From IMG/VR virus record IMGVR_UViG_3300045988_158394: a stretch of DNA of 64,000 nt; one strand, given 5' to 3'. Below the pieces are notes generated by a model, which was given only the letters and a program-made list of their open reading frames with translations, did not search any database and was not told the origin of the DNA. A program made the translations under genes and the position numbers. This DNA is from a virus. Its lineage: Duplodnaviria; Heunggongvirae; Uroviricota; Caudoviricetes. This document shows, in pieces, positions 10,309 through 11,566 of the stretch (position 1 is its first letter; every line of letters starts with the position of its first letter).

Positions 10309-11121
10309 CTATTTTAATTCTATGTAATTTTTAAATTCTCCCTCATATTTATACATGATGCTATCAAATCCTTCCATTACATCAACGAATTGTTGTGAAC
10401 ATTCCGGCTTCCAAGGCGTACACTTACGAACCATATCCATTTTTTTCTTATCCTTCGTTGTATCGACTAAGGATAGGTACCCTATAAAATTCATCATCTG
10501 AACAGGATCTTGATGTGTGAATATATATTTGACGTTTTGCTTAGTAGGCGAAAAAGAATCAAAAGCAGGGAACATATATTCACCAGAAAAAGAGAGTGCA
10601 GCATCAATGACGTCTGTTGCAGGAGTGCAGTTGCTCAGAATTGGCACTAAGCTAAAATTAGCACCTGAGCACACTGCATATATATCATCCCCTTTTTTTA
10701 GTTTTAACAGAGAGTCTTGCTTTGAATCCAATATTTTCAATTTGATATAATTTAGTGGCGTTGCATTTTCCCCTGGAGTAAATAACTCTACAATTGGTTT
10801 ATTATTCACCATTCTTATGGATTTTATTTCACCATACACAATTGGAATTGTGTTCCATTTTTCCTGAGCAGCAAATTCATTATCTTTAAAATCATTAACC
10901 AACTCAGATGGCAAATGATAACCAAATTGATTGTTCATTGCTTTCGAAGCAAATCCAGACAAATAGAATGCCCTTACTAAATCATAATCTTTCTTTGAGG
11001 TAGAAAGCCAATCTGGCAATTTATTATCAGCTATCGCGCTTCCAGCAAAAATAGCACAAAAAAATGTTATTACATTAAACAATTTCATTTTCCATTCACT
11101 CATTAATCGGTTTAAACTCAC
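10309..11121 (-). CDS. Secreted protein with signal peptide (candidate superinfection-exclusion, sim-like)
   Basis: Low-GC ORF; MKLFNVITFFCAIFAGSAIA signal peptide begins at the internal ATG (about 11088), so the true start is probably there. Confidence 0.5.
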   Translation of the reverse strand: MSLNRLMSEWKMKLFNVITFFCAIFAGSAIADNKLPDWLSTSKKDYDLVRAFYLSGFASKAMNNQFGYHLPSELVNDFKDNEFAAQEKWNTIPIVYGEIKSIRMVNNKPIVELFTPGENATPLNYIKLKILDSKQDSLLKLKKGDDIYAVCSGANFSLVPILSNCTPATDVIDAALSFSGEYMFPAFDSFSPTKQNVKYIFTHQDPVQMMNFIGYLSLVDTTKDKKKMDMVRKCTPWKPECSQQFVDVMEGFDSIMYKYEGEFKNYIELK

Positions 11122-11413
11122 TAATTAATTCACCAAGACTATTTGGGTATGCTTTATAAATAACATACTCCGAAGAGCCATCTGAATATTGGTAAACCCC
11201 ATAACAGACCAGTTTATTTATTCCTTTATGAATAGTTTTTTGATTATAAGAATCAACCACTGTTATTCCATATGACGATAATATTTCGTTATATTCTTCA
11301 ATAAGAGCTTTTCTTGTTTCCACTGAATTACAATCTACCTTCGAAAAGTCAACTTCATCAGCAAAAACATTAAATGTTAAAAAGGAAAGCACTAAAAACA
11401 AACGAATCAGCAT
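11096..11413 (-). CDS. Small secreted protein with signal peptide
   Basis: Start set at second ATG (TAGGAG RBS); MLIRLFLVLSFLTFNVFA signal sequence; low GC. Confidence 0.5.
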   Translation of the reverse strand: MLIRLFLVLSFLTFNVFADEVDFSKVDCNSVETRKALIEEYNEILSSYGITVVDSYNQKTIHKGINKLVCYGVYQYSDGSSEYVIYKAYPNSLGELISEFKPINE

Positions 11414-11434
11414 AAATCCACTCCTACGCATGGA

Positions 11435-11566
11435 TTAATAGTCATTGATCGCAAAGGCGTAAACTTGCCAAAGGTATTTCGTATAATCGGTACAAATCTC
11501 CTTTACGCTTGATGCTGCATTAACAGTCCCAGCCATAAATAATAACGATAGTAATAGTTTTCTCAT
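11435..11566 (-). CDS. 43-aa secreted peptide (MRKLLLSLLFMAGTVNAASS...)
   Basis: Not in the ORF track (under 60 aa); AGGTGAGG RBS 6 nt before ATG; clear signal peptide. Confidence 0.35.
   Translation of the reverse strand: MRKLLLSLLFMAGTVNAASSVKEICTDYTKYLWQVYAFAINDY

What the first reader, a model, noticed from the sequence alone, without database searches (positions are those of the whole stretch)
10309..11566. Low-GC islet encoding three consecutive signal-peptide proteins
Three minus-strand ORFs (270, 105 and 43 aa), each with a classical signal peptide, sit in a distinctly AT-rich segment bounded by a terminator and the immI promoter region. Content and placement fit a superinfection-exclusion (sim-like) or other envelope-acting moron transcribed divergently from immI.
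Basis: partly seen in the sequence, partly recalled or inferred. Interest (0 to 1): 0.55.

Follow-up and report, generated by a model that had tools for sequence, protein, structure and literature searches.

The report
Phage P1 sim superinfection-exclusion operon
The AT-rich islet is the long-known simA-simB-simC operon of bacteriophage P1, which exports proteins into the cell envelope so that a cell already carrying the phage blocks DNA entry by a second P1; it is an ordinary, already described feature.

Summary
Window 10100-11800 is 98.4% identical to phage P1 (NC_005856 46577-48277), where the three minus-strand genes are annotated simC, simB and simA (superimmunity), between the late promoter LPsit/pmgC and the C1 operator Oc4 and c4 promoters of immI. 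The proteins differ from P1's by 3, 1 and 4 residues. GC is 33% against 47.5% for the window, the lowest in the 64 kb. All three N-termini look like Sec signal peptides with AIA|D, VFA|D and VNA|A sites. A hairpin terminator follows simC.

Three refinements came from comparing related elements:
- simA is probably the truncated 5' stub (signal peptide plus about 24 residues) of a 215-aa secreted-protein gene that is intact in related phages.
- simB most likely starts at ATG 11413 (105 aa) and simC at ATG 11088 (259 aa).
- The SimC core (about residues 60-157) is probably an OB fold related to Pfam PF12869; this rests on weak direct evidence.

The slot holds at least three alternative cassettes of exported proteins among P1-like plasmids. 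How SimC blocks DNA entry remains unknown. Verdict: already known, low interest.

The parts
10131..10149 (-). Late promoter LPsit of the downstream pmgC-tub-pmgB-sit operon. It marks the edge of the conserved backbone, which ends at 10151.
   Evidence: Coordinates transferred from the P1 annotation (offset +7599). Homology to P7, Ro157c2YLVW and L007 all stops at 10151.
10152..11664 (.). Variable cassette slot. In this window it holds the sim cassette. Relatives carry other exported-protein cassettes here.
   Evidence: blastn breakpoints, P7 and Ro157c2YLVW annotations, PLSDB counts, and 'variable region 4' of P1-like phage-plasmids in PMC9603915.
10253..10276 (-). Intrinsic terminator after simC: an A-run, hairpin and U-run, so it is potentially bidirectional.
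   Evidence: The piece 10229-10279 also occurs alone in plasmids that lack sim (H74-H76).
10309..11088 (-). simC, the Sim exclusion protein precursor: 259 aa from ATG 11088. P1 annotates ATG 11103 (264 aa), and the open frame reaches GTG 11121 (270 aa).
   Evidence: 3 aa differences from P1 SimC. phrog_14355 E = 7e-190. dN/dS 0.12-0.36. The original M34382 ORF2 is 780 nt, i.e. 259 aa.
11029..11088 (-). SimC signal peptide, MKLFNVITFFCAIFAGSAIA (20 aa), with predicted cleavage at AIA|DNK.
   Evidence: Removal of 20 residues from P1 Sim is my recollection of Maillou & Dreiseikelmann 1990; only its title, 'purification of the processed protein', was seen here.
10618..10911 (-). SimC core, about residues 60-157 of the precursor: a probable OB-fold domain related to Pfam PF12869 (tRNA_anti-like).
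11096..11413 (-). simB, 105 aa from ATG 11413, preceded by AGGAG 7 nt upstream. P1 annotates ATG 11431 (111 aa). Signal peptide site VFA|DEV; the mature protein has two invariant cysteines.
   Evidence: phrog_14329 E = 6e-71, with the profile starting at residue 7. The L007 homologue is called at 105 aa. dN/dS 0.18-0.25.
11435..11566 (-). simA, 43 aa from ATG 11566 (GAGG upstream); the open frame reaches ATG 11593 (52 aa). Probably a truncated 5' remnant of a 215-aa secreted-protein gene.
   Evidence: 85-88% identical over 41 aa to the N-termini of Ro157c2YLVW gp35 and the L007 215-aa protein. It matches positions 1-41 of the 213-position phrog_3933. DNA homology to that gene runs from 11427 upward. 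The stop TAA aligns with a GAA codon of gp35. dN/dS is about 0.5-1.3 on few sites.
11631..11657 (-). Predicted sigma-70 promoter PsimA. It is weak (CTTAAT ... TCTAAT in the window) and shared with the gp35-type cassette.
   Evidence: P1 annotation, sequence read, and homology to Ro157c2YLVW over 11427-12300. My own scan did not call it.
11663..11679 (+). C1 repressor operator Oc4 (formerly Op51), lying between the divergent sim and c4 promoters.
   Evidence: One mismatch to the consensus ATTGCTCTAATAAATTT; P1 and P7 annotation.
11718..11746 (+). immI promoter P1c4 (formerly P51b): TTGACC-17-TATAGT.
11861..11946 (+). C4 antisense RNA of immI (context only, not part of sim).
   Evidence: Rfam RF01695, 69.6 bits.

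Best explanation
The islet is the simABC operon of a P1-like phage-plasmid.

How it is expressed. It is transcribed leftward on the minus strand, from weak promoters next to the C1 operator Oc4, and ends at the hairpin terminator before the late promoter LPsit.

What the products do. SimC is made as a 259-aa precursor, exported through the Sec pathway and cleaved after AIA (20 residues). The result is a soluble periplasmic protein of 239 aa with four cysteines, a probable central OB-fold beta-barrel and a C-terminal helical domain. From the periplasm it stops a superinfecting P1 after adsorption, at the step where DNA crosses the envelope. The most likely means is binding either a component of the P1 ejection apparatus or the host conduit it uses. 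SimB is a small exported protein with one conserved cysteine pair. It always accompanies SimC and most likely acts as its partner or stabiliser. SimA is most likely only the decayed 5' stub of a different secreted-protein gene. That stub was left when the low-GC simB-simC-terminator cassette recombined into this slot, and it now supplies the promoter and leader.

Shown here:
- identity with P1 sim and shared synteny
- signal-peptide features
- purifying selection on simB and simC
- the remnant nature of simA
- the cassette boundaries

Taken from the literature: the exclusion phenotype and the processing of Sim.

Inferred: periplasmic location of SimB, the SimB-SimC partnership, the OB fold, and the molecular target.
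For: Identity with P1 sim:
- 98.4% DNA identity to P1, with simC/simB/simA annotated under the match, plus a match to the original sim entry M34382.
- SimC, SimB and SimA differ from P1's by 3, 1 and 4 residues.

Literature:
[quoted passage not shown] - simC is called a 'superinfection exclusion gene' (PMC2409434).
- simA, simB and simC are non-essential for lytic growth in a CRISPRi screen (PMC10695390).

Sequence features:
- Signal-peptide features are present, with no further hydrophobic 19-mer and no lipobox.
- The cysteines are conserved.
- dN/dS is 0.12-0.36 for simC and 0.18-0.25 for simB.
- simB and simC are adjacent in three lineages: the window, L007 (82% SimC identity) and L005 (47%).

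simA and the fold:
- simA as a stub.
- OB fold.
Against: - No experiment was done on this element.
- The primary Sim papers (Devlin 1982; Kliem & Dreiseikelmann 1989; Maillou & Dreiseikelmann 1990) and the P1 genome paper are not in the held library. The details 'adsorption normal, transfection bypasses the block, SecA-dependent removal of 20 residues, phenotype seen with multicopy clones' therefore rest on my memory.
- SimC itself scores below Pfam's cut-off for PF12869, and both AF2 models are low-confidence (pLDDT 59 and 58). The fold assignment is tentative.
- The dN/dS estimate for simA rests on about 11 substitutions, so a functional 26-residue peptide is not excluded.
- simA is retained intact in P1 and in this window.
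- The molecular target of SimC is unknown.
Confidence: 0.9

Rival explanations
1. The cassette's natural role is not phage exclusion but another envelope function, such as host fitness or lysogenic conversion. On this reading the exclusion phenotype appears only on overexpression.
For: - The same slot in relatives holds unrelated exported proteins of unknown function: DUF5384 plus a lipoprotein in P7, and a 215-aa protein plus a YfjT-like protein in Ro157c2YLVW.
- The sim promoters are weak by consensus, and my scan did not call PsimA.
- As I recall, the Sim phenotype was described with multicopy clones.
- PADLOC and NCBIfam have no model for these proteins.
Against: - Held papers state exclusion of P1 by sim as established.
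- The family is confined almost entirely to P1-like elements: 15 hits among 1.84 billion representatives. That fits a function directed at P1-type phages.
- A related OB protein sits beside prophage repressor genes, a typical place for an exclusion gene (a single case).
Confidence: 0.08
2. All three products, SimA included, are functional subunits of one exclusion complex, as the P1 annotation 'putative superimmunity accessory function' implies.
For: - The three ORFs are tightly packed, with 3-nt and 7-nt gaps or overlaps, which fits an operon.
- All three have export signals.
- simA is kept open in both P1 and the window.
- The divergent element L005 has a full-length SimA-like gene (179 aa) directly upstream of its simB-like and simC-like genes.
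Against: - P1-type SimA is only the first 41 residues of a 215-aa protein family, followed by a stop at a former GAA codon.
- All 3-4 nucleotide differences in simA between the window and P1 change the amino acid. dN/dS against gp35 is about 1.3.
- In L007, simB-simC occur with a different upstream gene and with the intact 215-aa gene downstream.
Confidence: 0.12
3. The islet is decaying AT-rich junk DNA, and the ORFs and signal-peptide-like N-termini are chance features of AT-rich sequence.
For: AT-rich DNA encodes many Ile, Phe, Leu and Lys residues, which can mimic hydrophobic N-termini. All three genes are dispensable for lytic growth.
Against: - simB and simC are under purifying selection across 82% and 47% identical homologues.
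- Cysteines and domain cores are conserved.
- 138 plasmid records carry the cassette at 95% identity or more.
- Only 7 of 268 ORFs in the window pass the signal-peptide heuristic, and 3 of them are these neighbours.
Confidence: 0.01

Closest known systems
Bacteriophage P1 simC/simB/simA (sim superimmunity / superinfection-exclusion locus; GenBank NC_005856 46786-48070, M34382)
   Same: Same genes, order, strand and neighbours. DNA identity is 98.4%. SimC has 3 substitutions in 264 aa, SimB 1 in 111 and SimA 4 in 52.
   Different: There are a few substitutions: SimC C15F in the signal peptide, N197H and N220K; SimB Q68H; SimA S2G, P16S, G42W and H43Q. The surrounding element is a mosaic rather than P1 itself. 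For example, it carries a P7/D6-type tRNA-Ser.
Ro157c2YLVW gp35/gp34 cassette (215-aa secreted protein plus 158-aa YfjT-like protein) in the same slot of other P1-like elements
   Same: It shares the promoter region and the first 41 codons with simA, at 96.9% DNA identity over window 11427-12300. It occupies the same slot, and its products also carry signal peptides.
   Different: It has no simB or simC. Its 215-aa gene is intact, whereas the window keeps only the 5' stub. GC is 41-44% against 31-34% for simB and simC.
Pfam PF12869 (tRNA_anti-like) OB-fold proteins, many of them secreted or membrane-anchored and phage-encoded
   Same: The SimC core aligns to PF12869 positions 52-144. Intermediates P0012, P0014 and P0015 pass the family cut-off. 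The predicted barrel matches OB folds.
   Different: SimC itself is below the cut-off (19 bits against 23.5). It also has an extra N-terminal helical segment and a C-terminal helical domain of about 100 residues containing a conserved Cys-x6-Cys motif. No PF12869 member was found here with a demonstrated exclusion function.
Other injection-blocking exclusion proteins (T4 Imm and Sp, P22 SieA, lipoproteins such as Ltp of TP-J34, Cor, Llp). This comparison is from general knowledge.
   Same: Phage-encoded, acting in the envelope, blocking infection after adsorption or at the receptor, and dispensable for lytic growth.
   Different: Mature SimC has no membrane-spanning segment and no lipobox. It would therefore be a soluble periplasmic protein rather than an inner-membrane protein or a lipoprotein. 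No sequence similarity to those families appeared in the Pfam, PHROG, PADLOC or PDB searches.

Membership tests
P1 sim (simABC) superinfection-exclusion locus | Sequence orthology to P1 simC, simB and simA | tested here: met
   98.4% DNA identity over 1701 bases. Protein differences are 3/264, 1/111 and 4/52. PHROG families 14355 and 14329 match at E = 7e-190 and 6e-71.
P1 sim (simABC) superinfection-exclusion locus | Position between pmgC/LPsit and the C1 operator Oc4 / c4 of immI, transcribed divergently from immI | tested here: met
   P1 annotation transferred; operator at 11663-11679; C4 RNA and its a1b1 targets found by Rfam; pmgC ORF at 9533-10099.
P1 sim (simABC) superinfection-exclusion locus | SimC made as a precursor with a cleavable N-terminal Sec signal peptide | tested here: met
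   Sequence features only: an n-region Lys, a hydrophobic core with Kyte-Doolittle mean 2.70, an AIA|D site after residue 20, and no later hydrophobic segment. Actual processing cannot be tested here. A SignalP run was not available.
P1 sim (simABC) superinfection-exclusion locus | Expression blocks P1 infection after adsorption, at DNA entry | not testable with these tools
   Known for P1 sim from the literature cited. Not tested for this allele.
Pfam PF12869 tRNA_anti-like OB fold | Score at or above the family gathering threshold (23.5 bits) | tested here: not met
   SimC scores 19.0 bits, E = 1.1e-3, and P0002 scores 15.4 bits. SimC is therefore not filed as a member.
Pfam PF12869 tRNA_anti-like OB fold | Five-stranded OB barrel, and a homology chain to bona fide members | tested here: inconclusive
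Lipoprotein-type exclusion proteins (Ltp, Cor, Llp) | Lipobox [LVI][ASTVI][GAS]C at the signal-peptide cleavage site | tested here: not met
   No lipobox in SimA, SimB or SimC. The only Cys in the SimC signal peptide is in the context TFFC, within the h-region.
Inner-membrane exclusion proteins (T4 Imm, P22 SieA type) | One or more transmembrane helices in the mature protein | tested here: not met
   In all three proteins the best 19-residue hydrophobic windows lie within the N-terminal signal peptide only.

The most novel reading that the evidence does not exclude
P1's 'simA' is not an accessory exclusion gene. It is the decayed 5' stub (promoter, signal peptide and about 24 codons) of a 215-aa secreted-protein gene, left when a foreign low-GC simB-simC-terminator cassette recombined into a hot-spot between LPsit and Oc4. 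That hot-spot carries at least three interchangeable cassettes of exported proteins across P1-like phage-plasmids. SimC would then be a soluble periplasmic OB-fold protein distantly related to PF12869, which would be a new structural class among injection-blocking exclusion proteins.
Probability: 0.55. Interest if true: 0.25.

Novelty: already known. Interest (0 to 1): 0.1.

Why it matters
It matters little as a discovery. The locus has been named since 1982, it is annotated in the P1 reference genome, and it is listed as a variable region of P1-like phage-plasmids. It has three practical uses.
- RefSeq and PLSDB label these genes 'hypothetical protein' in well over a hundred plasmids, and they could be named.
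- The start codons of simB and simC, and the status of simA, in the reference annotation probably need revision.
- How a soluble periplasmic protein stops P1 DNA entry is still unsolved. The probable OB-fold core and the obligatory SimB companion give concrete handles for experiments.

Tried and rejected
- Ungapped comparison with P1 beyond 11846 gave about 1000 mismatches. This was an indel artefact in the c4 region, not real divergence: megablast gives 96.4% identity over 11600-14500.
- Pfam, NCBIfam and PADLOC gave no family-level assignment for any of the three proteins. The weak TcpS and eut_hyp hits for SimB are noise.
- PDB sequence searches with profiles of SimC and SimB found nothing.
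- The word-indexed homologue searches added almost nothing beyond close relatives. The exhaustive HMMER search found only 15 relatives.
- Both AF2 models have low confidence, with pLDDT of 59 and 58. I therefore used only their secondary structure and the general OB-fold signal, and ran no fold search on SimB.
- The P1 genome paper (PMC523184) is not held, and the primary Sim papers are not held either. Searches for a text describing the Sim mechanism returned citations only.
- I considered whether SimA, SimB and SimC are paralogues or fragments of one gene. All-against-all BLASTP shows no similarity between them.

Full report
**Observation.** The three minus-strand ORFs exist as described: 10309-11121 (270 aa from GTG), 11096-11431 (111 aa; 105 aa from ATG 11413) and 11435-11593 (52 aa; 43 aa from ATG 11566). 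The segment is strongly AT-rich. GC is 0.33 over 10309-11566, against 0.475 for the window (sd 0.03 for windows of equal size), and it is the lowest stretch in the 64 kb.

Each product begins with a charged n-region, an uncharged hydrophobic core and a small-residue -3/-1 site: AIA|DNK, VFA|DEV and VNA|ASS. None has a lipobox or any later membrane-spanning segment. A crude signal-peptide heuristic passes 7 of 268 ORFs in the window, and three of the seven are these neighbours.

Downstream of the 270-aa ORF lies a hairpin terminator at 10276..10253. Upstream lie the C1 operator at 11663-11679, a c4 promoter-like site at 11718-11746, the a1b1 targets and the C4 antisense RNA (Rfam).

**Identity.** Window 10100-11800 matches phage P1 (NC_005856 46577-48277) at 98.4% over its whole length. 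The features under the match are simC, simB and simA ('superimmunity' and 'putative superimmunity accessory function'). It also matches M34382, 'Bacteriophage P1 sim region proteins'. The proteins differ from P1's by 3 of 264, 1 of 111 and 4 of 52 residues.

Synteny is that of P1: sit-pmgB-tub-pmgC and LPsit to the left, Oc4-c4-icd-ant1/2-kilA-repL to the right. Held papers describe the function:
[quoted passage not shown] - simC is the 'superinfection exclusion gene' (PMC2409434).
- All three genes are non-essential in a CRISPRi screen (PMC10695390).
- simC/simB/simA form variable region 4 of P1-like phage-plasmids (PMC9603915).

**Anatomy of the slot.** I compared the window with P7 (L003), phage vB_EcoM-Ro157c2YLVW (L004), a Logan contig (L007) and a divergent P1-like contig (L005). 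The conserved backbone ends at 10151 in all of them, just past LPsit.

P7 homology resumes at 11665, at the C1 operator. In between, P7 carries two other signal-peptide proteins: a DUF5384 protein and a lipoprotein.

Ro157c2YLVW homology resumes earlier, at 11427, and so includes the simA promoter region and nearly all of simA. There the sequence is the 5' end of a 215-aa secreted protein (gp35), which is followed by a 158-aa YfjT-like protein.

L007 has simB-simC-terminator (window 10228-11404, 89% identity) with a different upstream gene, and with the intact 215-aa and 158-aa genes downstream. L005 has a 179-aa gp35-like gene followed by SimB-like (59%) and SimC-like (47%) genes.

In PLSDB, the sim cassette is in 138 records at 80% coverage or more, the gp35/gp34 cassette in 81 and the P7 cassette in 168. 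About 785 records match this region.

**simA.** SimA from its ATG at 11566 is 85-88% identical over 41 residues to the N-terminus of the 215-aa protein, and it matches positions 1-41 of the 213-position phrog_3933. At the junction the simA stop codon TAA aligns with a GAA codon of gp35, and recognisable homology continues for about 10 more bases.

The ATG that P1 annotates as the simB start (11431, MRRSGF...) corresponds to an internal Met-Arg-Lys of gp35. The ATG at 11413 is preceded by AGGAG at ideal spacing, it is the start used by the PHROG profile, and it agrees with the 105-aa simB gene call in L007.

All nucleotide differences in simA between the window and P1 change the amino acid. dN/dS against gp35 is about 1.3, though on only about 11 substitutions. 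By contrast, dN/dS is 0.12-0.36 for simC and 0.18-0.25 for simB. I conclude, with moderate confidence, that simA is a gene remnant that supplies the promoter and leader, and that simB-simC is the functional cassette.

For simC, the ATG at 11088 (MKLF...) gives the 259-aa precursor of the original M34382 annotation and a 20-residue signal peptide.

**The proteins.** SimC belongs to a very small family: 15 hits among 1.84 billion representative proteins, most of them fragments. Its core (residues about 60-157) scores 19 bits against Pfam PF12869, below the 23.5-bit cut-off. Its distant relatives P0012, P0014 and P0015 pass that cut-off.

Mature SimC has four cysteines and mature SimB has two invariant ones, which fits oxidising periplasmic proteins. 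The SimB model (pLDDT 58) shows one helix packed on a four-stranded sheet. No solved structure is related by sequence.

**Mechanism.** The best-supported account has four steps.
- The operon is transcribed away from immI.
- SimC, and probably SimB, are exported by Sec and processed.
- Periplasmic SimC prevents the DNA of an adsorbed P1 from reaching the cytoplasm.
- SimB is a conserved partner of SimC.

The steps 'adsorption unaffected, transfection bypasses the block, processing depends on SecA and is needed for the phenotype, phenotype seen with multicopy clones' are my recollection of Devlin et al. 1982, Kliem & Dreiseikelmann 1989 and Maillou & Dreiseikelmann 1990. I could see these papers only as citations. 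The molecular target is unknown. An OB-fold protein binding a component of the ejection machinery, or its host conduit, is inference.

**Verdict.** This is a correct reading of a known locus. Novelty: already known. Interest: low. The small additions are that simA looks like a stub, that the simB and simC starts probably need revising, that SimC probably has an OB core, and that the slot has three alternative cassettes. These may be useful for annotation, but they do not change the picture.

Noticed in passing
window 33070-33156: There is a fourth tRNA gene, tRNA-Ser (tga), next to tRNA-Asn, tRNA-Thr and tRNA-Met(CAT). The stretch matches P7 and D6 at 95-96%. In the P1 records and several other relatives only its flanks match. 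The element is therefore a mosaic: P1-type sim with a P7/D6-type tRNA-Ser.
   Followed up: partly
window 10152-11664; L003 2008-3072; L004 1559-2734: The slot between LPsit and the C1 operator Oc4 holds at least three alternative cassettes among P1-like plasmids, and all of them encode signal-peptide proteins. These are sim (138 PLSDB records), a 215-aa protein plus a YfjT-like 158-aa protein (81 records), and P7's DUF5384 protein plus lipoprotein (168 records). The functions of the two non-sim cassettes are unknown.
   Followed up: partly
L007 209-3109: One Logan contig (SRR14689322) stacks two cassettes in the slot: a 107-aa membrane-like protein, then simB and simC (82% SimC identity), then the intact 215-aa and 158-aa genes. 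This shows that cassettes can be added as well as swapped.
   Followed up: no
L005 2108-3238: In a divergent P1-like contig (GCA_053108235.1) an IS605-family TnpB/OrfB gene sits between icd and the sim-like operon, i.e. in the sim/immI intergenic region.
   Followed up: no
L008 5001-5465: P0015 is a membrane-anchored PF12869 OB-fold protein related to the SimC core. It lies directly beside HTH_3 repressor-type genes in a prophage-like metagenome contig, a position typical of exclusion genes. This is a single case.
   Followed up: no
window 10229-10279: The simC terminator hairpin, with about 50 bases around it, also occurs on its own (98-100% identity) in P1-like plasmids that lack simB and simC (H74-H76). 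It may belong to the slot rather than to the sim cassette.
   Followed up: no
window 11846-12100: The c4 region carries a small indel relative to P1: an ungapped comparison loses register from about 11846, although megablast gives 96.4% overall. The piece 11665-11800 is 100% identical to P7 but only about 95% identical to the older P1 entries. The immI allele may therefore be nearer to P7's. I did not work out what this means for immunity specificity.
   Followed up: no
window 11663-11679, 13333-13349, 28288-28304, 31810-31837, 41714-41730, 47480-47496, 61864-61880: Eight matches (up to 2 mismatches) to the C1 operator consensus ATTGCTCTAATAAATTT, against 0.04 expected by chance. This is the dispersed C1 operator set typical of P1.
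   Followed up: no
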